Virus record (IMG/VR): IMGVR_UViG_3300028888_001628
Span: 64,001 to 128,000 of that record
Origin: a virus
Lineage: Duplodnaviria > Caudoviricetes
Length of the DNA: 64,000 bases
Reading direction: 5' to 3' (one strand)
In this document: one piece after another, positions 9,423 through 21,084 of the stretch
Position numbering within the stretch: position 1 is the stretch's first letter
Layout of the letters: the number at the start of each line of letters is the position of its first letter
Notes under the pieces: model-generated
The model's input: the letters and a program-made list of their open reading frames with translations, nothing else
Told to the model about the DNA's origin: nothing
Database searches by the model: none
Position numbers and translations under genes: made by a program

Positions 9423-10406
9423 ATGAAAGTTTTTACTGAGTCTATTATATCAGAGATGAAACCTACTAAGGATTCAAATAAATCTGCAGGTACTTTATGT
9501 GTAATGACAGGTCCTTGTATGCAATTCGGTCAGGTCAATCGCAATAATCGTATCTATTCAAGAAAGCTTGTAGAAGATAGAATTCTTAATAACCCAACAG
9601 TACAAGAGACATTAAAGAATAGATCTATGTTGGGTGAAGGTGGTCATCCTGAAAACAGAGTAGACATTAGTTACCCAGAAGTAGCGCTTGCTGTAGAAAA
9701 ACTTTGGATTCCAGAAGGTAATGGTGATATGTTATGGGGACAGTTCGCAATCCTCGATACACCTACTGGAAGAATTCTAAATACACTAGTACAGTACGGA
9801 ACTAAATTAGGTATTTCTGCTAGAGCTGTCGCTGATTCATATCAAAAAGACGGTCATGAGATTATAGTTGAAAGTTCTTATGAGTTAATTACATTTGATG
9901 CAGTCCCCGAGCCTGGGTTTAAATGTGCTCGTCTAGAACAAGTAGATTCTGTATCAAAACCTGTAGATAAGATGTCAACAAAAGAATTGAAAGAATCCTC
10001 TGCAGCACTCAAATCATTTAAGAATCCTGTATTTGAATCAAGAATTCGTACATTAGATAAAGAGATCTGTAAACGTGAGCATAAAGCAGATATCCATTCT
10101 ATATTAGAATCAATGAATAAATTAGCAGAATCTCTAGATGGTTCATTCAATAAATTACAAAATATCAAATACGAAAAGAAATTAGCGTCTCTTATTACTG
10201 AAGCTAAATCTCTTATAAAAGATATTAAAACTACAACCACTAAAAATAATTCAATATCTAATATTTGTAGCGAAGATATTAGTATCAATAAATTTAGAGA
10301 TGATACTAAATTCAACGAATCAATAAATACAGATAATCTATTTAGTAATAAAGATATTTCTACATTAGAAAGAATGTGTTCAAATTTTAGGAGGAACTAT
10401 GAATAA
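9423..10406 (+). CDS. Prohead (capsid maturation) protease, T4 gp21-like, with a C-terminal coiled-coil extension
   Basis: NRNNRIY, LGEGGHP, ILDTPTGRIL, GISARA and LITFDAVPEPG motifs; directly precedes the major capsid gene. Confidence 0.9.
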   Translation: MKVFTESIISEMKPTKDSNKSAGTLCVMTGPCMQFGQVNRNNRIYSRKLVEDRILNNPTVQETLKNRSMLGEGGHPENRVDISYPEVALAVEKLWIPEGNGDMLWGQFAILDTPTGRILNTLVQYGTKLGISARAVADSYQKDGHEIIVESSYELITFDAVPEPGFKCARLEQVDSVSKPVDKMSTKELKESSAALKSFKNPVFESRIRTLDKEICKREHKADIHSILESMNKLAESLDGSFNKLQNIKYEKKLASLITEAKSLIKDIKTTTTKNNSISNICSEDISINKFRDDTKFNESINTDNLFSNKDISTLERMCSNFRRNYE

Positions 10407-11874
10407 AGTTATGTTAGAAGCTTACAAAGATAAGATTAGCGTAGTTGAAAGTGTCCGTGGTGGTATGTCAGATGACGCCAAAAAGACACTTGCTCGCGTA
10501 TTAAATAATACAGATAATGCTCTCAATGATCTTCGTGCCATTAGTGGTATGAAGAATGAAAGCGTTTGCCGTGACACACCATCCTCACAGTACAGTGGTA
10601 TCGATTGGTTCCCTGAACACTCAATCGACATGGTCAGTGCTATCTATGCTTCACAGATTATCGATGACATCGTTTCAGTTCAGTCAATTGATTCACCTCT
10701 CGGTGTTATTCGTTTTCTACAGTACGTTTATGGTCAGGATCGTGGCGCTGCTAAACGTAATGGCGTTGCTATTGATCAGTGGGGTGCAATGCAAGGTGCC
10801 GCTCAGGGTAACTTTGTAGCTCGTGAGCGTATCGACGGTGAGCAGGTTAACGAAGCCACACAGAACACAACTGCACATACATGGACACTTAAAGGCTTTT
10901 GCCAGCATCTTCCACTTAAGCTCAACCCTGATAGTCCATTCATTTTGACAAATGAAGCCAATCAGAGGATGTACTACGTTCGCGCTTGTAAAGGTGGTTG
11001 GAAAGTTTCAGCCATCGATACAGATGGCACTGAAGAAGAGCTTGCTAACGCTACAGTATCGCTTCTTTCACCAGCTTCTGGTGAATTTGACATTGTGTTA
11101 CCAACAGATGAAGGTACTGCAACTGATACATGGTCAGTTTCATACTTCCAGGATCTAAGCGAAGTTCCTACAGATTCTATGAACCTTGAACTTCGTCTTC
11201 GTACTGAAATGATTAAAGCTGTTCCTCACAAAATCCGTGCTAACTTCTCATTTGATGCTTCCTATGCACTTTCTAAAGCTCACGGTATTAACGTTGAGGA
11301 ATCACTCGTTAATGCTTGCACCGCAGAAATTCGTCAGGAACGTGATAATGAAGTCATTGGCATTCTAATGCGTCAGGCTGGTAATCGCCGTGAATGGGAT
11401 CGTACAGTTACTTCCTACATTTCACAGCACGATCACGATATGAGTTTCCTTAATGAGATCTTTGCTTGTGCATCACTCATTAACTTCGAAACAAAACGTG
11501 GTTTTGGTAACTGGGTAGTTGTTGGTCGTCAGGGTCTCAACATTATTAGATCAGCTGGTTCTGATCACTTCAAAGCCGCAGGCGCTACACTTCCTAACAA
11601 TGGTGCATTCGTTGTTGGTGAACTCGAAAGTCAGATCAAGGTTATTTACTCACCATACGTTCCACAGGATTCATACCTCGTTGGTTACAAAGGTTCCGAT
11701 ATGGATGCTGGCTTCGTAGTTGCAGACTTCCTCCCAATTACAAAGACAGATCTAGTAATGCTTGATGATTTCGTTGGACGTCAGGGTCTCGTTTCCTATT
11801 ACGGAACTAAGATGTTAAATCCAAAAATGTATGTGGTAGGGAAGATTGTTGGTGGTGATCCTAATCTTCGTTAA
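10399..11874 (+). CDS. Major capsid protein, T4 gp23-like
   Basis: DIVSVQSIDSPLGVIRFL, KIRANFS...LSKAHGINVEESL..EI..E.DNEVI, RGFGNWVV and LVGYKG...DAG motifs; strong codon bias. Confidence 0.93.
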   Translation: MNKVMLEAYKDKISVVESVRGGMSDDAKKTLARVLNNTDNALNDLRAISGMKNESVCRDTPSSQYSGIDWFPEHSIDMVSAIYASQIIDDIVSVQSIDSPLGVIRFLQYVYGQDRGAAKRNGVAIDQWGAMQGAAQGNFVARERIDGEQVNEATQNTTAHTWTLKGFCQHLPLKLNPDSPFILTNEANQRMYYVRACKGGWKVSAIDTDGTEEELANATVSLLSPASGEFDIVLPTDEGTATDTWSVSYFQDLSEVPTDSMNLELRLRTEMIKAVPHKIRANFSFDASYALSKAHGINVEESLVNACTAEIRQERDNEVIGILMRQAGNRREWDRTVTSYISQHDHDMSFLNEIFACASLINFETKRGFGNWVVVGRQGLNIIRSAGSDHFKAAGATLPNNGAFVVGELESQIKVIYSPYVPQDSYLVGYKGSDMDAGFVVADFLPITKTDLVMLDDFVGRQGLVSYYGTKMLNPKMYVVGKIVGGDPNLR

Positions 11875-11895: not shown

Positions 11896-11928
11896 ATACC
11901 CTCTAGTTTTTAACTAGAGGGTATTTTT
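11896..11928 (+). terminator. Intrinsic terminator after the capsid gene
   Basis: ataccctctagtt / aactagagggtat followed by tttt. Confidence 0.8.
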
Positions 11929-11974: not shown

Positions 11975-12320
11975 ATGAAAAAGAAAGATATTAATGAACT
12001 TAAAGAATTGTATTTAAATAAATCATATAATAAACTAACTATTACAGACATTTATTATAATTCTGATAAGAAAACATGGTGTGCGGTATGCAAGTGTGAG
12101 TGTGGTTCGCAATGCAGTAAGTCATTAAATAAAGTAATATCTGGTCATACTAAAACATGTGGTGGCAGAGTTCAAGAATAGAGAGCCGTCAAAACATAAA
12201 TATGTAATGGAAGCCATTCATAATGGTGATTGTATTTCAGTTTATAACCCAGGTTCGTTTACTAATATATTCGTAAGAACCGGTTATCACTTAGATGGAA
12301 TGAAGGTTGTAGAAGATTAA
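11975..12320 (+). pseudogene. Remnant of a free-standing homing endonuclease gene (HNH/AP2-associated Cys-rich N-terminus)
   Basis: YNKLT...CKCECG...L..VISGHTKTCG then a stop at 12181; the +1 frame is open from 12138 to TAA 12320. Confidence 0.6.
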
Positions 12321-12391: not shown

Positions 12392-13321
12392 ATGGCATCT
12401 ATAGATTGGAAAAAAGTTTGGGAATCAGCTCTAGCTAATAAAGAGATATTCCCTGTTAAGTTTATTAACAAAGATACAATCTCAGTCTCATGCCCTACAC
12501 GCTTTTCTAAATCAGGTGAATTATCAATAGAAATTACGCCTTTTTTTAACGAGGCTTCTATAGTTTTAGAACTACTTGTATTTAACGAAAATTTACTTCT
12601 TGATGAATTACCTTCTGAGAAAGAAGTTGATTCTGAGAAATCATCTACAGATGATTTTAACAGGTTAGTTGCAAGATTAGTTAAATACGAATTAGACAAT
12701 CGCATAATGGAAAGATTCAAGATTAAATCAAGTGGTTTTAAATCAGAGACTGAGGCAGAAAATACATTAGTCGATTATATAAATAGTAAAGCAACGGAGA
12801 GTGGGAGAATGTTTGACGATAAATTAGATGAGCTGAATGATTCTATTACAGCTAAAAAAGAAGAGAACTATTATCACATTCTAGAGTCTATTCGTAAAAA
12901 TAGATCATTTATTCTTAAGAAAGTAGAATCAATATTATTCAATAATTACAAATGGCACACTTCAAAGAATGAAGCTTACGATGATTCTACTGCATCTTTT
13001 TATGACGTGAATGGAAACTTATCAGCAGTCGTTTCATTAGTTGATAATTTTATTATAGTCGATCTTGCAAAAGGCGTTACAGCAAAAGTAAGTGCTATTC
13101 AATCTGACGAAGATATTGAAAAAGAACTTATTGATGATGTTGATGCTGCAAAAGAAGTAATGGCAAATAATGAAGTTAATCAGCTACGACAAGTTGTAGC
13201 TGATAATGAGCCTGAACCTGCAGATCCGCTTGATGATGAAGAAGACTATTTTGAATCTTTGTCACGTAGAATTACAAAACTAGAGAATCTATTTATCCGT
13301 CGTAAATTACGTAGACTATAA
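12392..13321 (+). CDS. Putative prohead core/scaffold-type protein
   Basis: Acidic; multiple xxE-S/A sites; C-terminal LSRRITKLE followed by basic RRKLRRL; located in the head cluster. Confidence 0.5.
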   Translation: MASIDWKKVWESALANKEIFPVKFINKDTISVSCPTRFSKSGELSIEITPFFNEASIVLELLVFNENLLLDELPSEKEVDSEKSSTDDFNRLVARLVKYELDNRIMERFKIKSSGFKSETEAENTLVDYINSKATESGRMFDDKLDELNDSITAKKEENYYHILESIRKNRSFILKKVESILFNNYKWHTSKNEAYDDSTASFYDVNGNLSAVVSLVDNFIIVDLAKGVTAKVSAIQSDEDIEKELIDDVDAAKEVMANNEVNQLRQVVADNEPEPADPLDDEEDYFESLSRRITKLENLFIRRKLRRL

Positions 13322-13336
13322 TTATTAGAGGTTAAT

Positions 13337-13777
13337 ATGTCAAAAATTTCATTTACTTTAAATGCATATAGTCATGTAAGAGTACATGATTTAAATAATA
13401 AATCATATAAATTAAAACGAGGCGTAAATCATTTAGAGTTAGAATATAAAGATTATGAATCACTAATGAAAGCTTTGGGCTGTACGCCACTACCTGATCC
13501 TGATTTAGTAAAAGAATCAAAGCCTGAAGAACCCGTTACTGAAGAACAGGCTGAACCTGTTGTTGAGCAGATTAAATCAGAAGAGCCTGTTGTTGAAGAA
13601 CCGGTTGAATCAAAGCCTGAAGAACCACCTGTTGAAGAACAGACTGCATCTGAAGATAAATATTCAGAAATGTCATACAGTCAGTTAAAGGCAGAATATA
13701 AACGTATTACTGGAAAATCTTGTAAGTTAAAGAAAGAAGAAGTAATCGAATTCTTACGGGAACACGAAAATGTTTAA
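13337..13777 (+). CDS. Protein with a Pro/Glu-rich linker and C-terminal HeH/Rho-N-like helical domain
   Basis: YSEMSYSQLKAEYKRITG...KKEEVIEFL; 20-nt direct repeat at 13514 and 13607. Confidence 0.55.
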   Translation: MSKISFTLNAYSHVRVHDLNNKSYKLKRGVNHLELEYKDYESLMKALGCTPLPDPDLVKESKPEEPVTEEQAEPVVEQIKSEEPVVEEPVESKPEEPPVEEQTASEDKYSEMSYSQLKAEYKRITGKSCKLKKEEVIEFLREHENV

Positions 13778-14420
13778 TAGATCACAGATCTTAGACGCGG
13801 TTAAAACTCGTTTAGGATATCCAGTTATTGATTTAGCAATAACTGATGAAATGATATTAAAACAAATAGATTGTGCAGTTAATAAAGTTATTCCATATCT
13901 AAATAATGTAGAGCTTTTTACAGTATATAATAAAACTGTTGATTTTAATCACAAGAAAGTATATACAGTATTAAGAGTAACTTCATCTAATGATACTGAA
14001 ACAATAAATTTAGACAAAGCTGTTAACTACGGTTTTTACATTACAAACAATGCAAGATCTATAGTTGATTGCGCTGTTTGGAATTATTATTGTAATTCAG
14101 TACAAGATGATTTAAATCCCATTGGTTTTAGATTAGTTGGTGATACTTTATACATAGATGGCGGTAACGCACCTTGGACTATTGAAGCTGTAACAGAGCA
14201 TTCAATAAATACAATGACAGAAGATTATGTCAACTGGATTACTGATTATTCTGTTGCATTGACTAAATGCGTAGAAGGTGAGATTCGTTCTAAAGTAAAG
14301 ATCACTGGATCACCTGTCGAAACGAATGGGTCAGAGTTAAAACAAGAGGGTATTACAGAAAAGACCGCTCTTGAAGAAAAACTCGGTACACAGCTTGGTT
14401 TATTTTATGCAACTCGCTAA
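13770..14420 (+). CDS. Neck / head-completion protein (T4 gp13-like)
   Basis: RLGYPVIDLAITDE, WITDYSVALTK...GEIRSK and NGSELKQEG..EK..LEE motifs. Confidence 0.8.
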   Translation: MFNRSQILDAVKTRLGYPVIDLAITDEMILKQIDCAVNKVIPYLNNVELFTVYNKTVDFNHKKVYTVLRVTSSNDTETINLDKAVNYGFYITNNARSIVDCAVWNYYCNSVQDDLNPIGFRLVGDTLYIDGGNAPWTIEAVTEHSINTMTEDYVNWITDYSVALTKCVEGEIRSKVKITGSPVETNGSELKQEGITEKTALEEKLGTQLGLFYATR

Positions 14421-14458
14421 ATAATATATAAACTTATTTTATAATAGAGGTGTTAATT

Positions 14459-14890
14459 ATGATGAGTCGTACTGATGAAATTAAAAACATTATGCGTCAA
14501 CTTCGTGAAAGCAAATCAGTTGAAGCTAAGAATGAATCACTAAAGAAAGTTAATGAAGAATCTGAAGCTGCTGACACAGAAAATGATACTTCTGAATCCG
14601 ATTTAATTCTTGCTCGCCTTGAAGATATTCTTGCTCGTTTTGAAAAAGTAATCGCGGCTGCAGATGGTGAAGAACCTACTGAAGACGAAGAAATGCCTGC
14701 CGAAGATGAAGAAGCACCTGCCGAAGATGAAGGTGGTGAAGACGAGGAAACATCTGCTGAAGAAGAGGGTGGTGAAGAGGAAGCCGCTGAAGAATCATTT
14801 GAACGATCTATTGAAAATCGTCTTGCTGCATTAGAACGTCGTTTTACAGAATCACGCCGTCGTCATCTCTGCCGTCGTTTTACTCGTTAA
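14459..14890 (+). CDS. Putative prohead scaffold/core protein
   Basis: Very acidic coiled-coil protein with many E-S sites (KNES, EES, FTES) and an Arg-rich C-terminus; capsid-like codon bias; GAGG RBS. Confidence 0.6.
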   Translation: MMSRTDEIKNIMRQLRESKSVEAKNESLKKVNEESEAADTENDTSESDLILARLEDILARFEKVIAAADGEEPTEDEEMPAEDEEAPAEDEGGEDEETSAEEEGGEEEAAEESFERSIENRLAALERRFTESRRRHLCRRFTR

Positions 14891-14914: not shown

Positions 14915-14956
14915 TAAAGGTACCATTTAATATCTAACCATTAAATGGTACCTTTA
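14915..14956 (+). terminator. 16-17 bp hairpin (terminator or regulatory), ATATCTA in the loop
   Basis: taaaggtaccatttaa / ttaaatggtaccttta; followed by CTGTATAT. Confidence 0.6.
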
Positions 14957-15817: not shown

Positions 15818-16545
15818 TAGACATTCGCGATTATGACATGGCTGTTGTAGAAAGAATTAAATCCTATTTCAATAATACGCATTGGATTAATCGTCAAACT
15901 ATACCAATTAAAGATATTCGTGATAGAAAAGTTCTTAATGGTTGTGATATAGAGTTTCCATTAGTTACAGTTAGAAGAGTTAACTGTCCAATGTTTTCAA
16001 AAGAATATAATTCTTGGTCTAGAGCTAACACTGGTCAAGCTTACCTAACTGCTGATAGTAGATACAAATCAAATGATTTACGTGATTATGATTTAGATCT
16101 TGCTAAACAGATAATTGAATCAGGGCATCACGATGCCGTATCACTTGTAAACTCTACATTTGATTTAACGTATTATATAGATGTTATTTCTTTAGAGCGA
16201 GATAACTTTGATACTATTTTAGTAGAATTACAAGAGAATCTGTTTAGAGTTCCATATCTTCAATTCGATAATCTTAAACGTAACGGTGAGCAGGATAAAT
16301 TAGTTAAGGGTCAAGCTTGCCATTTTATAGTAGAAGAAATAGAAGATACATCTGATCTTGAGAATTTTGATTCAGGTAATTCATTATATAGAGCTACTAT
16401 AACAGCTAAAGTAAATGCTTATATTTATCGTAAATATAGAAGTAAGACTTTAGAGAAGATTGGAATGAAGTTTGTTGACGGTACTGATGCTACAGATCGT
16501 ACTGTATTAGAATATACTATCCCAGAAGAGAATAACGATGGCTGA
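15814..16545 (+). CDS. Tail terminator / sheath stabiliser (gp15-like)
   Basis: YDMAV...FPLVTVRR...FDLTYYID...YRATITAKV pattern; precedes sheath and tube genes. Confidence 0.6.
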   Translation: MIDIRDYDMAVVERIKSYFNNTHWINRQTIPIKDIRDRKVLNGCDIEFPLVTVRRVNCPMFSKEYNSWSRANTGQAYLTADSRYKSNDLRDYDLDLAKQIIESGHHDAVSLVNSTFDLTYYIDVISLERDNFDTILVELQENLFRVPYLQFDNLKRNGEQDKLVKGQACHFIVEEIEDTSDLENFDSGNSLYRATITAKVNAYIYRKYRSKTLEKIGMKFVDGTDATDRTVLEYTIPEENNDG

Positions 16546-18244
16546 TATTACACTTGTAAGAAGATCTTTACTAGATGAATCCACTATAGGTGCAATAGTA
16601 TGTCATACACCAAAGACATTTAAAGATAGTAAGTGTAAACTAATAAAGACGAACGATGAGCTAATTCAATATTTCGGAGATCCGTATATAGATCCTTATA
16701 TGTATTCTGATCTACTTATCGCAAGCAAATTACTTACTAATGGAATTCCATTATATATTTCATCTGTAAACGATACACCTGTTAATAATGATGGTTTTAC
16801 AATATGCGATTATAATGGTTATACAGAGTTTGTTTTTGATTCTATTAAAACTAAAAATGACTTGGGTGAAGAAGTTGTACTTGCACCGTGTCTTACATAC
16901 GAACTAAAATCAGATATTAAATTCTGTCAGCCTTTAATAAATAGAATTGAAGTTTCAAATGAAAAGCATAGAATTCATTTGTATGTAGGTCTCTATTATA
17001 TAGACATTTATAAATCTAAAACACTAGAAGAAATAAAAAGTCTAGATTCTAATCGACTATATAGAACATTTCATTTTGTGTTTGATTTAGATGCATCTAA
17101 AACTACAAACAAAGTAATTGTAGATGATTTTAGACTTAACGGTCTAGAGTTACATTTAAATAATACAAACTTTGTTGATTATTTCACCAATCTATTTAAA
17201 TTTAAAGATGGCGTATCTTCTGACTATGCAATCGATATATTGCTAAAATCACCTACAGATGATGAAGAATTAAATTACGATGTAGAGACTAATTATTATA
17301 GGTATAATATTCATACAAGTGATTATAAATATGACTTTGATAGCTCTAAAGATAACGAAGACCGTAATATACTATTAGAATATTATAATTCTATAGACTA
17401 TCTTGTGGAGATGAAACCTGAGCCACTTATGATGTGCCTAGGTAAGTTAATTAGTATATCGCATACAGAGTCAGAAGTCTACTCACATACAGTTAGAGAT
17501 TTAGGTCATGAATATCACGTATCAGTTTGTAATCATTTGATGGAATCATTTGATGAGAATAGTAACACTTATTTATTTATAAATACACCAGATCTATCTG
17601 TATCTTCTGTAATAGATCTATTAAATTGTGAAAAGCAATATACTTATTCACCTGAGCTACTAACAAATTATAATTGTGATTTATTCTTTGGTTACGCTAC
17701 AGATCTTGTTAGTAATTCATTATCACGCAGTTATATACAGAAAGCAAATTATTCAGCAGCTATATTATCGTTCTATAATCTTATGCGAAATAATGTTGCT
17801 TATATTACAAATAACTTTGTATCGCTTAATATCGCGAACAGATGTGTTAAACTTGTAATCTCTGAAAAATCAGCTTCTAAATTAAAAGAAGCTCACTGTA
17901 ATTCTATTGTATTATTTGACATAGGGAGTCCATCTTCTTATGGTGATAGATCACTATCTAGATCACCAAACTTACAATATAGTCACATATCAAGAAGTGT
18001 TGTCTTTATAAGAAGACTAATTAACGAATATATAGAGACTAGAAAGTTTACTCATAATACAGTATTTAATACAGACATTAGCGTTAATTATATTAAGAAG
18101 TCTATCTTAGATACTTTTGTATCTATCGGGACTTTACAATATTACAATGTCACTTATACTATAAGTGGTAAAACAGTTAATATGCAGATAGATTTATTAT
18201 TCTCACAAATAGCAGAAAATATTATTTTGAATTTTACTATATAA
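16538..18244 (+). CDS. Divergent tail sheath-like protein (sheath paralogue 1)
   Basis: LIQYFGDP N-terminal motif and SYGDRSL...YSHISRSVVFIRRLI...FTHN C-terminal sheath motif; adjacent to tube. Confidence 0.65.
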   Translation: MADITLVRRSLLDESTIGAIVCHTPKTFKDSKCKLIKTNDELIQYFGDPYIDPYMYSDLLIASKLLTNGIPLYISSVNDTPVNNDGFTICDYNGYTEFVFDSIKTKNDLGEEVVLAPCLTYELKSDIKFCQPLINRIEVSNEKHRIHLYVGLYYIDIYKSKTLEEIKSLDSNRLYRTFHFVFDLDASKTTNKVIVDDFRLNGLELHLNNTNFVDYFTNLFKFKDGVSSDYAIDILLKSPTDDEELNYDVETNYYRYNIHTSDYKYDFDSSKDNEDRNILLEYYNSIDYLVEMKPEPLMMCLGKLISISHTESEVYSHTVRDLGHEYHVSVCNHLMESFDENSNTYLFINTPDLSVSSVIDLLNCEKQYTYSPELLTNYNCDLFFGYATDLVSNSLSRSYIQKANYSAAILSFYNLMRNNVAYITNNFVSLNIANRCVKLVISEKSASKLKEAHCNSIVLFDIGSPSSYGDRSLSRSPNLQYSHISRSVVFIRRLINEYIETRKFTHNTVFNTDISVNYIKKSILDTFVSIGTLQYYNVTYTISGKTVNMQIDLLFSQIAENIILNFTI

Positions 18245-20475: not shown

Positions 20476-20739
20476 ATGGATAAGAAATTAGAAGCTCGAA
20501 TTGCTAAATTAGAAAGAATGATGAATCGTAAATCTGTTAAGAATGAGCGCCATGGATATGACACTATAAATAAGATTGATGCGGCAGCCGGTGAAGTTAA
20601 GAAGGCTACTCTTAAATTATATCGCCTTTTAGAAAATTTTGATGATGATGGTTTAATGGATATATTTTATAAACTTTCAGTAGCTGCTGATGAAATGCTT
20701 ACTGCTACTGGTGAAATTTTACACGAATACGATGATTAA
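20476..20739 (+). CDS. Small protein with LExRIxxLE leader (putative head-packaged internal protein)
   Basis: MDKKLEARIAKLERMMNRKSVKNE followed by an acidic helical body; GGAGGT RBS. Confidence 0.7.
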   Translation: MDKKLEARIAKLERMMNRKSVKNERHGYDTINKIDAAAGEVKKATLKLYRLLENFDDDGLMDIFYKLSVAADEMLTATGEILHEYDD

Positions 20740-20805: not shown

Positions 20806-21084
20806 ATGGATAAAAAATTAGAAGCTCGAATTGCTAAATTAGAAATAGTATTTAAAAGAAAGAATGAATCAACAGAAGATGAAGTAGCACATTCTATATA
20901 TGAAGCGTCTGATAAAATTAGACAGATTGTAAATGATCTATGTAAGACATTGGCATACAGTGATACATTTAATTATAAAGATGCAGATATGGCTCTTCAA
21001 ATTTGTGAGGATTCTTTTTCACAAGACGCGTATCGTAGATTGAGTTCCATTCTAAACGGTAGAATGAATGGTAAAAACTTTTAA
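20806..21084 (+). CDS. Small protein with LExRIxxLE leader (putative head-packaged internal protein)
   Basis: MDKKLEARIAKLEIVFKRKNES; first 39 nt differ from the upstream gene at one position. Confidence 0.7.
   Translation: MDKKLEARIAKLEIVFKRKNESTEDEVAHSIYEASDKIRQIVNDLCKTLAYSDTFNYKDADMALQICEDSFSQDAYRRLSSILNGRMNGKNF

What the first reader, a model, noticed from the sequence alone, without database searches (positions are those of the whole stretch)
13259..14890. The same motif is at the C-terminus of head core/scaffold-like proteins: the likely docking site
Seen: 12392..13321 ends LSRRITKLENLFIRRKLRRL (motif at 13259-13285) and the acidic scaffold-like 14459..14890 ends IENRLAALERRFTESRRRHLCRRFTR (motif at 14810-14836). 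The prohead protease extension carries FESRIRTLD (10032-10058) and ends ISTLERMCSNFRRNYE. All three lie in the head gene cluster, and each has a motif-plus-Arg-rich segment like the cargo leaders. Inference: cargo leaders mimic the scaffold assembly helix, either forming mixed coiled coils with it or binding the same site on the capsid inner wall. This would give a mechanism for the targeting.
Basis: partly seen in the sequence, partly recalled or inferred. Interest (0 to 1): 0.75.

Follow-up and report, generated by a model that had tools for sequence, protein, structure and literature searches.

The report
Cargo-leader motif ends two head proteins
In an uncultured T4-like giant phage, the short helical tag that begins about 18 unrelated proteins also ends two conserved head-module proteins, one of them probably the abundant acidic scaffold, which suggests (but does not show) how cargo is tethered inside the forming capsid.

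Summary
The 309-aa protein (12392-13321) and the 143-aa acidic protein (14459-14890) each end in the 9-residue motif L-E-x-R-h-x-x-L-E, then a hydrophobic residue and an Arg/Lys-rich tail. The same motif opens 18 of about 196 proteins in this 156-kb genome. A profile built only from the N-terminal leaders ranks these two C-termini first among all non-leader sites. Orthologues in five related contigs and hundreds of metagenome proteins match it better still, with synonymous DNA changes under invariant residues. The protease instances are real and conserved but not statistically distinguishable.

Neither protein has a homologue or fold match of known function, so "scaffold/core" rests on indirect evidence:
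- their position in the head-neck operon;
- conserved copies of the rare KNE tripeptide, the inferred prohead-protease site, also found after the leaders and at residue 54 of the capsid protein;
- for the acidic protein, synonymous codon usage as extreme as the capsid gene's.

The motif fits the published R-hxxhE parallel three-stranded coiled-coil determinant. My best reading (0.42) is tag-to-tag co-assembly in the prohead core. No interaction was tested.

This scan has noted the N-terminal leader on other genomes. I found the C-terminal copies noted only on this stretch. Class: new variant of the T4 capsid-targeting principle.

The parts
12392..13321 (+). A309: 309-aa clade-specific head-module protein. 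It has two small alpha/beta domains, two long helices, an acidic linker and a C-terminal tag.
   Evidence: ORF. No Pfam or PHROG hit. 304 metagenome relatives but only 13 representatives at 50% clustering. AF2 model with pLDDT 77. No significant fold match. Syntenic in 5 relatives.
13259..13318 (+). C-terminal tag of A309: the 9-residue motif (13259-13285), a hydrophobic residue at position 12, and a basic tail (net +7).
   Evidence: 18.0 bits; P = 2e-4; orthologues 12.7-16.5 bits; L290, L297, E298 and I302 invariant; synonymous changes; charge.
13202..13258 (+). Acidic linker before the A309 tag, net -10. Its sequence and length vary among relatives.
12965..12973 (+). KNE at residues 192-194 of A309, a candidate prohead-protease cut site in a loop between the long helix and the second beta domain.
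   Evidence: Nearly invariant in alignment A1. Loop position.
14459..14890 (+). D143: 143-aa acidic protein (pI 4.3, net -25) and candidate major scaffold/core protein. It has an N-terminal helix, a KNE site, a conserved central helix, a disordered acidic tract and a C-terminal tag helix.
   Evidence: 245 relatives, none named. Arg codons CGT/CGC 0.93 against 0.28 genome-wide and 0.92 in the capsid gene. Codon score ranks 2nd of 175.
14810..14887 (+). C-terminal tag of D143: the 9-residue motif (14810-14836), Phe at position 12, and an Arg-rich tail with an invariant Cys.
   Evidence: 20.6 bits; P = 6e-4. Fifteen consecutive residues are invariant in alignment A2. Synonymous changes. Helix 104-142 with pLDDT about 90.
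14663..14794 (+). Poly-acidic, disordered tract of D143 (net -26 over 44 residues), variable in length among relatives.
   Evidence: (pLDDT below 50 for residues 75-105).
14618..14653 (+). Central conserved helix of D143 with a partial copy of the motif; the Arg at position 4 is missing.
   Evidence: PSSM 12.1 bits, rank 29. Invariant block in A2. pLDDT about 96.
14528..14536 (+). KNE at residues 24-26 of D143, a candidate protease site that would remove a 26-residue N-terminal helix.
   Evidence: N25 and E26 invariant in A2, and the site is duplicated in one relative.
9423..10406 (+). Prohead protease (T4 gp21 / S77 type) with a C-terminal extension of about 150 residues.
   Evidence: Pfam PF03420 at 5e-13 and phrog_207 at 1e-39. 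T4 gp21 (5jbl) aligns to residues 28-165 only.
10032..10058 (+). Motif-like segment in the protease extension: F for L at position 1 and D for E at position 9. It is conserved but a weak match.
   Evidence: 6.4 bits, rank 34; P = 0.059.
10356..10403 (+). Conserved C-terminal tail of the protease, resembling a half motif plus basic residues. A conserved x-N-E site at 10311-10319 precedes it.
   Evidence: (5.0 bits, rank 43).
10399..11874 (+). Major capsid protein (gp23 family). The propeptide would end at KNE, residues 52-54 (10552-10560). It contains no copy of the tag motif.
   Evidence: Pfam PF07068 at 7e-35. The site is conserved as [KRT]-N-E in all relatives..
20488..20514 (+). Example N-terminal leader motif, one of nine copies in this window. 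The others are at 20818, 29937, 30978, 31734, 60503, 60569, 61113 and 62993.

Best explanation
The 12-residue amphipathic unit L-E-x-R-h-x-x-L-E-x-x-h with basic flanks is one prohead-core assembly tag, used at either end of a protein.

D143 is most likely the abundant, acidic, expendable scaffold: a functional analogue of T4 gp22, not a homologue. A309 is a second conserved internal head protein. Both carry the tag at the C-terminus. About 18-20 variable cargo proteins carry it at the N-terminus.

Read as heptads, the conserved residues are d-e-g-a-d-e, which is the whole interface of a parallel coiled coil and includes the R-hxxhE three-strand determinant. I infer that tags zip onto each other in mixed parallel bundles. 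Scaffold bodies would then lie at one end of a bundle and cargo bodies at the other. Basic tag flanks may be helped by the acidic tracts of D143 and A309. Cargo would thus be built into the core while the gp23-like shell closes around it.

The S77 protease would then cut after Glu, typically at K-N-E. That frees cargo from its leader, trims the capsid protein, and cuts D143 and A309.

Shown: motif identity, conservation, positional bias, the skewed KNE distribution, and the codon bias of D143. Inferred: packaging, cleavage, the scaffold role, and any tag-to-tag contact.
For: - Same module: the leader-only HMM and PSSM rank the two C-termini first among non-leader sites, far above shuffles. Orthologues match better still.
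- Protein-level constraint: invariant tag residues sit next to variable acidic linkers, with many synonymous codon changes.
- Co-occurrence: three related contigs that have A309 and D143 carry 8-16 leader matches each. Listeria phage LIS04 and Streptococcus phage GXN1 have about 30% capsid identity, no recognisable A309/D143 counterpart near their capsid genes and no tblastn hit, and none of these matches. This is despite a protease extension in LIS04 of about 390 residues that looks like coiled coil.
- Prohead residence: 12 of the genome's 15 KNE tripeptides lie after leaders or in the capsid protein, A309 and D143, leaving 3 elsewhere against about 16 expected. The sites are conserved.
- Abundance: D143 shares the capsid gene's extreme Arg-codon bias and ranks 2nd of 175 genes on a codon score referenced to capsid, presumed sheath and tube.
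- Scaffold-like build: D143 has pI 4.3 and a helix, disordered acidic tract, helix architecture.
- The R(g)-h(a)-x-x-h(d)-E(e) motif specifies parallel three-stranded coiled coils (PMC3653964).
- T4 internal proteins co-purify with gp22, and how proteins reach the T4 core 'remains mysterious' (PMC9026906; PMC9958956).
Against:
- The hydrophobic core of the tag spans only about 12 residues (d-a-d-a). That is short for a stable free-standing coiled coil.
- An amphipathic helix docking into a receptor groove would conserve the same face.
- Neither protein has homology or a fold match to any scaffold or core protein.
- D143 lies 3 kb downstream of the capsid gene, beyond the adaptor-like gene, not in the usual scaffold position.
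- There is no conserved Glu site between the body and the C-terminal tag, so the fate of these tags is unclear.
- The co-occurrence rests on one clade and is not phylogenetically independent.
- D143 is short and rich in Glu, Ala and Arg, so its codon score depends on few amino acids.
Confidence: 0.42

Rival explanations
1. Common-receptor model. Each tag, at either terminus, binds as a single helix to one shared site, and tags do not bind each other. Candidate sites are the inner face or propeptide of the capsid protein, the protease extension, or the portal. [quoted passage not shown]
For: The tag core is only about 12 residues, and its basic flanks resemble the electrostatic coat-binding end of P22 gp8, where R293 and K296 bind D14, E15 and E18 (PMC9965877). 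The protease extension has two weak motif-like conserved segments that could be a partner. The SPN3US protease C-terminal propeptide is proposed to target it to the core (PMC7411985).
Against: The capsid protein has no complementary or similar motif and no marked acidic patch in its propeptide. The conserved Arg(g) and Glu(e) pair is the signature of helix-helix salt bridges in coiled coils. No receptor candidate was identified.
Confidence: 0.25
2. Independent oligomerisation modules. The motif is a generic short trimerising coiled coil that each protein uses for its own homo-oligomer. The resemblance between leaders and the two C-termini would reflect common sequence rules or module shuffling within the genome, not a shared partner or destination.
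For: R-hxxhE motifs occur in many unrelated coiled coils. Internal copies exist in proteins outside the head module, at G000 136791-137420 and 135796-136791. A309 codon bias is unremarkable.
Against: Placement is strongly terminal: within the first 25 residues in 18 proteins and within the last 26 in two. The tag is coupled to the rare KNE tripeptide. Basic flanks are shared. Two large coiled-coil-rich phages have zero matches. The tag sits on unrelated bodies, including ankyrin and DUF6273 proteins (note e1-5747370).
Confidence: 0.2
3. Protease exosite or degron. The motif is the element by which the prohead protease recognises its substrates, so it marks everything destined to be cut and is not a means of localisation.
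For: Every motif carrier examined also has a nearby or conserved x-N-E or x-x-E site. T4 gp21 has very few sequence determinants for cleavage (PMC9026906), so an exosite would be useful.
Against: The capsid protein, the main substrate, has the KNE site but no motif. In A309 the conserved site lies about 95 residues from the tag, and in D143 about 90.
Confidence: 0.08

Closest known systems
Phage T4 capsid-targeting sequence (CTS) on internal proteins IPI-III and Alt, with prohead core proteins gp22/gp67/gp68 and protease gp21
   Same: Both have a gp21-type (S77) protease and a gp23-type capsid protein. Both put short N-terminal leaders on unrelated proteins, each ending at a Glu site. Both have acidic core proteins cut by the protease. 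In both, cargo is thought to bind the core rather than the shell.
   Different: The leader here is a defined coiled-coil unit of about 12 residues on about 18 proteins, not a 10-residue CTS on 3-4. The inferred site is K-N-E rather than L/I-x-E. No gp22, gp67 or gp68 homologue exists here. The same unit recurs at the C-termini of two conserved head proteins, which gives a candidate partner. The two T4 reviews I read name no partner: one calls core localisation 'mysterious', and the other reports only that IPs co-purify with gp22.
Phage P22 scaffolding protein gp8 C-terminal coat-binding domain, and cargo loading by fusion to it
   Same: A basic C-terminal helical element on an otherwise acidic or extended assembly protein mediates incorporation. 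Anything carrying that element is packaged.
   Different: P22 uses a helix-turn-helix that binds the coat N-arm. Here the model shows a single helix with coiled-coil periodicity. There is no sequence similarity. In P22, natural cargo does not share the element.
Herpesvirus and giant-phage proteases whose C-terminal region targets them to the scaffold core (SPN3US gp245)
   Same: The protease has a long C-terminal extension, probably removed at a conserved Glu site, with a conserved tail.
   Different: The resemblance of the protease tail to the tag is weak here (5-6 bits). A shared scaffold/protease C-terminus is not established.
R-hxxhE trimerisation motif of short parallel coiled coils (coronin-1, ccbeta, GCN4-pM3)
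   Same: The Arg(g)-h(a)-x-x-h(d)-Glu(e) pattern is exact, and an additional upstream Glu(e) is present.
   Different: Those are free-standing oligomerisation domains of three or more heptads. Here the unit is under two heptads, sits at protein termini, and is coupled to protease sites. Its oligomeric state is unknown.
Encapsulin cargo-loading peptides
   Same: One short terminal peptide on many unrelated cargos directs them inside an HK97-fold shell.
   Different: Encapsulin peptides bind the shell directly and are not helical zippers. No scaffold, protease or DNA is involved. This comparison rests on my own knowledge and was not tested here.

Membership tests
T4-type CTS / prohead-core targeting system | gp21-family (S77) prohead protease and gp23-family capsid protein | tested here: met
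   PF03420 at 5e-13, PF07068 at 7e-35, phrog_207 and phrog_138. The 5jbl alignment covers residues 28-165.
T4-type CTS / prohead-core targeting system | Short N-terminal leader shared by unrelated proteins and ending at the protease's Glu site | tested here: met
   18 of about 196 genes carry it. KNE occurs 8 times in 810 leader residues against 7 in the remaining ~47,000 residues. Cleavage itself is inferred.
T4-type CTS / prohead-core targeting system | Leader-dependent packaging into the capsid, with removal by the protease | not testable with these tools
   The phage is uncultured and no proteome exists.
T4-type CTS / prohead-core targeting system | Homologues of the T4 core proteins gp22, gp67 and gp68 | tested here: not met
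   Nine of the ten ORFs scanned between 4895 and 15347 gave no Pfam or PHROG match to a scaffold or core family. The tenth, the protease, matched S77, whose Pfam name is 'Prohead core protein serine protease'. The two small ORFs at 11975-12320 were not scanned. D143 has no longer fused relatives.
P22-type scaffolding protein | C-terminal helix-turn-helix coat-binding domain with essential basic residues | tested here: inconclusive
   A basic C-terminal helix is present, but it is modelled as one continuous helix, 104-142. Binding was not tested.
P22-type scaffolding protein | Gene immediately upstream of the capsid gene; acidic, elongated, helical protein | tested here: inconclusive
   Composition and architecture fit. 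The position does not: D143 is 3 kb downstream, after the adaptor-like gene.
R-hxxhE parallel trimeric coiled coil | Arg(g)-h(a)-x-x-h(d)-Glu(e) sequence pattern | tested here: met
   Present in both C-terminal tags and all 18 leaders. Definition from PMC3653964.
R-hxxhE parallel trimeric coiled coil | Three-stranded parallel assembly | not testable with these tools
   Only single-chain prediction was available. The core is only about 12 residues.
Shared protease/scaffold C-terminal docking tail (herpesvirus-like arrangement) | Protease and scaffold end in the same peptide | tested here: inconclusive
   The protease tail scores 5.0 bits and the internal segment 6.4 bits against the leader PSSM. 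Shuffle P is 0.059 for the best one and 0.005 for both.

The most novel reading that the evidence does not exclude
The prohead core of this T4-related lineage is wired by one interchangeable zipper of about 12 residues. C-terminal copies on an abundant acidic scaffold (D143) and on A309 form mixed parallel three-stranded bundles with N-terminal copies on any cargo, assisted by acidic-tract and basic-flank electrostatics. This would be the first explicit address-and-dock pair for a T4-type head, and a simple rule for programming what a phage capsid carries. A further possibility is that A309's two chaperone-like alpha/beta domains act as an adaptor for cargo. That rests only on weak matches: Z of 6.9 or less and TM about 0.5.
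Probability: 0.3. Interest if true: 0.8.

Novelty: new variant of a known kind. Interest (0 to 1): 0.55.

Why it matters
A 2023 T4 review states that how proteins are localised to the scaffolding core "remains mysterious" (PMC9958956). The T4 CTS has been known since 1996, and neither T4 review I read names its binding partner.

Here the cargo tag is a recognisable coiled-coil unit. The same unit ends two conserved head proteins, one with the hallmarks of an abundant scaffold. That turns the question into a concrete two-component hypothesis, testable with peptides and co-expressed proteins from sequence alone.

If it holds, it explains how this common gut/rumen phage lineage loads a large, variable set of proteins. 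It would also offer a compact tag-and-dock pair for loading proteins into phage-derived capsids. If it fails, the conserved C-terminal tags still define the functional ends of two otherwise unannotated head proteins.

Tried and rejected
- Homology for A309 and D143. Pfam and PHROGs gave nothing. The GenBank phage collection gave no match. An exhaustive representative search for A309 found only its own narrow clade. A search for longer fused forms of D143 found nothing.
- Fold of A309. Foldseek against PDB and BFVD gave no hit at E <= 0.001. VIA-align wide gave a best Z of 6.9, within the tool's stated noise range. The Atlas gave TM about 0.5 to YbjN/CesT-like clusters for residues 2-150. I treat this as a lead only.
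- Cultured relatives as a test of co-variation. LIS04 shows no recognisable counterpart of A309 or D143 beside its capsid gene, and GXN1 is too sparsely annotated there to tell. Neither gives a tblastn hit for either protein or any leader match. They therefore serve only as negative controls, not as a test of co-variation.
- A Glu cleavage site between the body and the C-terminal tag. The candidate Glu is replaced by Ala or Gln in relatives, so I rejected it as a conserved site.
- DNA-level constraint, such as a promoter or hairpin, as the cause of conservation. Rejected because tag codons vary synonymously.
- A copy of the motif in the capsid-protein propeptide as the dock. None was found.
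- Promoter scan. It gave fewer sites than shuffles and is not informative.
Full report
**Context.** The window is bases 64001-128000 of a single 155,974-bp contig of an uncultured phage with about 32% GC, which CheckV estimates as 68% complete. The head-neck-tail block is on the + strand:
- an S77/gp21-type prohead protease, 9423-10406, 327 aa;
- a gp23-family capsid protein, 10399-11874;
- two small ORFs;
- A309, 12392-13321;
- a 146-aa protein, 13337-13777;
- an adaptor-like protein, 13770-14420;
- D143, 14459-14890;
- then further genes, a 568-aa ORF at 16538-18244 and the tail tube.

The tube has PHROG support. I take the 568-aa ORF to be the sheath only from its size and its position next to the tube; PHROGs gave no hit for it. 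The T4-type portal lies 9 kb upstream of the protease. The nearest deposited phages share only about 30% capsid identity: Listeria LIS04, Bacillus HSE3 and SP-15, and Streptococcus GXN1.

**Observation.** All quoted peptides are at the stated coordinates. Genome-wide, the pattern L-E-x-R-[ILV]-x-x-L-E lies within the first 25 residues of 18 of about 196 genes.

I built an HMM from those 18 leaders only. After the training sites, the five best hits in the proteome are a second tandem copy, the D143 C-terminus (8.2 bits), one more N-terminal leader, the A309 C-terminus (7.1 bits) and one internal site. Shuffled proteomes give 0.025 hits of 7 bits or more, and 0.005 near a C-terminus.

A 12-position PSSM ranks the D143 and A309 ends 21st and 22nd of 45,625 windows. 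Per-protein shuffles give P = 6e-4 and 2e-4.

The protease segments are conserved: the internal segment is invariant in six of seven relatives, with one T-to-I change in the seventh. They are weak matches, at 6.4 and 5.0 bits. Shuffle P is 0.059 for the better one and 0.005 for the pair. I count them as suggestive only.

**Conservation.** Five IMG/VR contigs with 69-82% capsid identity keep the gene order capsid, A309, 146-aa protein, adaptor-like protein, D143.
- Their A309 ends are more canonical than the window's and score 12.7-16.5 bits on this genome's leader HMM. That is within the range of the true leaders, 14.8-27.9 bits. Their D143 ends score 8.4-10 bits.
- A309 has 304 relatives in the 5.8-billion-protein set but only 13 representatives at 50% clustering. 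Every representative that keeps its C-terminus (nine of the 13, six of them full length) ends in the tag. L290, L297, E298 and I302 are invariant.
- D143 has 245 relatives. In the 15-sequence alignment, fifteen consecutive tag residues are invariant while the acidic tract changes in length and sequence.
- Tag codons differ synonymously among relatives, so the constraint acts on the protein.

**Are they prohead proteins?** Direct identification failed. There was no Pfam, PHROG, GenBank-phage or structural match of use. Three indirect lines support the idea.

1. *KNE distribution.* The tripeptide KNE occurs 15 times, close to the 16.6 expected from composition. However, 8 follow leaders and 1 ends a 9-residue N-terminal leader. 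One each lies at capsid residue 52-54, A309 residue 192-194 and D143 residue 24-26. Only 3 lie anywhere else. Similar tripeptides show no such skew. The capsid site is kept as [KRT]-N-E in all relatives, and the A309 and D143 sites are nearly invariant or invariant. T4 gp21 cuts after Glu. I therefore infer that K-N-E is this protease's preferred site and that A309 and D143 are substrates.
2. *Codon usage.* D143 uses CGT/CGC for 93% of its Arg codons, the capsid gene 92%, and the genome 28%. On a synonymous-codon score referenced to the capsid, presumed sheath and tube genes, D143 ranks 2nd of 175, and A309 ranks 29th. This points to very high expression of D143.
3. *Build.* D143 has pI 4.3. 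It has two N-terminal helices, a disordered tract of net charge -26, and a confident C-terminal helix that contains the tag (net +6). This is how scaffolds that are expelled on DNA entry usually look.

A309 is modelled as two small alpha/beta domains joined by a 68-residue helix. A second helix, an acidic linker (-10) and the tag helix (+7) follow.

**What the motif is.** Read as heptads, the conserved residues are L(d), E(e), R(g), I/L/V(a), L(d), E(e) and then a hydrophobic a position. The b, c and f positions vary. This includes the exact R(g)-h(a)-x-x-h(d)-E(e) motif reported to specify parallel three-stranded coiled coils through inter-helix Arg-Glu salt bridges (PMC3653964).

In a parallel bundle, N-terminal tags and C-terminal tags place their protein bodies at opposite ends. 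That geometry suits a scaffold-cargo junction, but this is inference. Against it, the hydrophobic core is under two heptads long.

**System-level co-occurrence.** I ran a profile of eight window leaders over whole records. It finds 14, 8 and 16 sites in the three related contigs, including their A309 and D143 ends. It finds none in LIS04 or GXN1, although the LIS04 protease has an extension of about 390 residues that looks like coiled coil. LIS04 shows no recognisable A309 or D143 counterpart next to its capsid gene, and neither phage gives a tblastn hit for either protein. This fits coupling between leaders and C-terminal tags, but it is a single clade.

**Comparison with known systems.**
- *T4.* Leader-directed loading into a T4-type core is known (the CTS). 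Internal proteins co-purify with gp22, and the way proteins are localised to the core is called mysterious.
- *SPN3US.* Long N-terminal propeptides and the protease's C-terminal propeptide are proposed to target proteins to the core.
- *P22.* The basic C-terminal helix-turn-helix of the scaffold binds the coat N-arm.

What is new here is one defined coiled-coil unit used N-terminally on many cargos and C-terminally on two conserved head proteins. I class it as a new variant of a known kind.

My probabilities:
- tag-to-tag co-assembly with D143 as scaffold, 0.42;
- a common receptor, 0.25;
- independent oligomerisation modules, 0.20;
- a protease exosite, 0.08.

Other first-stage notes of this scan describe the same N-terminal leader type on this genome and on other genomes. 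One note on another genome lists the KNE|S code, which I had derived independently before I saw it. I used these as leads only.

Noticed in passing
genome-wide; in the window at 10552-10560, 12965-12973, 14528-14536 and after the leaders (for example 20539-20547): The tripeptide KNE is almost confined to leader ends and three head proteins: 12 of 15 copies, with 3 elsewhere against about 16 expected. This suggests a K-N-E cleavage code for the S77 protease and avoidance of the site in other proteins.
   Followed up: partly
14459-14890 versus 10399-11874: D143 and the capsid gene share an extreme preference for CGT/CGC Arg codons: 0.93 and 0.92 against 0.28 genome-wide. No other gene with at least 8 Arg codons exceeds 0.71.
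   Followed up: partly
14915-14956 and 11896-11924: An 18-bp-stem hairpin lies directly after D143, and a 13-bp-stem terminator-like hairpin lies after the capsid gene. They probably mark the ends of transcription units.
   Followed up: no
11975-12320: Two short overlapping ORFs (68 and 53 aa, the first Cys-rich) lie between the capsid gene and A309. The relative L002 has a 2.2-kb gap between its capsid and A309 genes at this position, against about 0.5 kb here. This may be a mobile or homing element slot.
   Followed up: no
13337-13777: A 146-aa protein with a Pro/Glu-rich middle and a small C-terminal helical domain. A protein of similar build follows the capsid gene in Listeria phage LIS04, so unlike A309 and D143 it may predate this clade.
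   Followed up: no
12392-13321 (residues 2-150 and 164-270): Both alpha/beta domains of A309 give weak matches to type III secretion chaperone, YbjN and FP-domain folds (Z of 6.9 or less, TM about 0.5). This is at noise level, but the two search routes agree.
   Followed up: partly
10356-10403, 10059-10079 and 14870-14872: Conserved Cys residues sit inside or just after the motif-like segments of the protease (two) and in the basic tail of D143 (invariant C138). Their role is unknown.
   Followed up: no
G000:C1:136791-137420 and 135796-136791 (beyond the window end): Two proteins carry internal, non-terminal copies of the motif (17.5 and 14.3 bits). They do not fit the terminal-tag pattern.
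   Followed up: no
upstream of the window start to 9264: The T4-type portal gene ends near window base 166. About 9 kb of genes with weak tail-protein matches separate it from the protease, unlike the compact T4 order 20-67-68-21-22-23.
   Followed up: no
protein P0253: A distant relative (E = 6e-4) of the second half of A309 keeps the beta domain and the acidic linker. It replaces the C-terminal tag with an unrelated domain.
   Followed up: no
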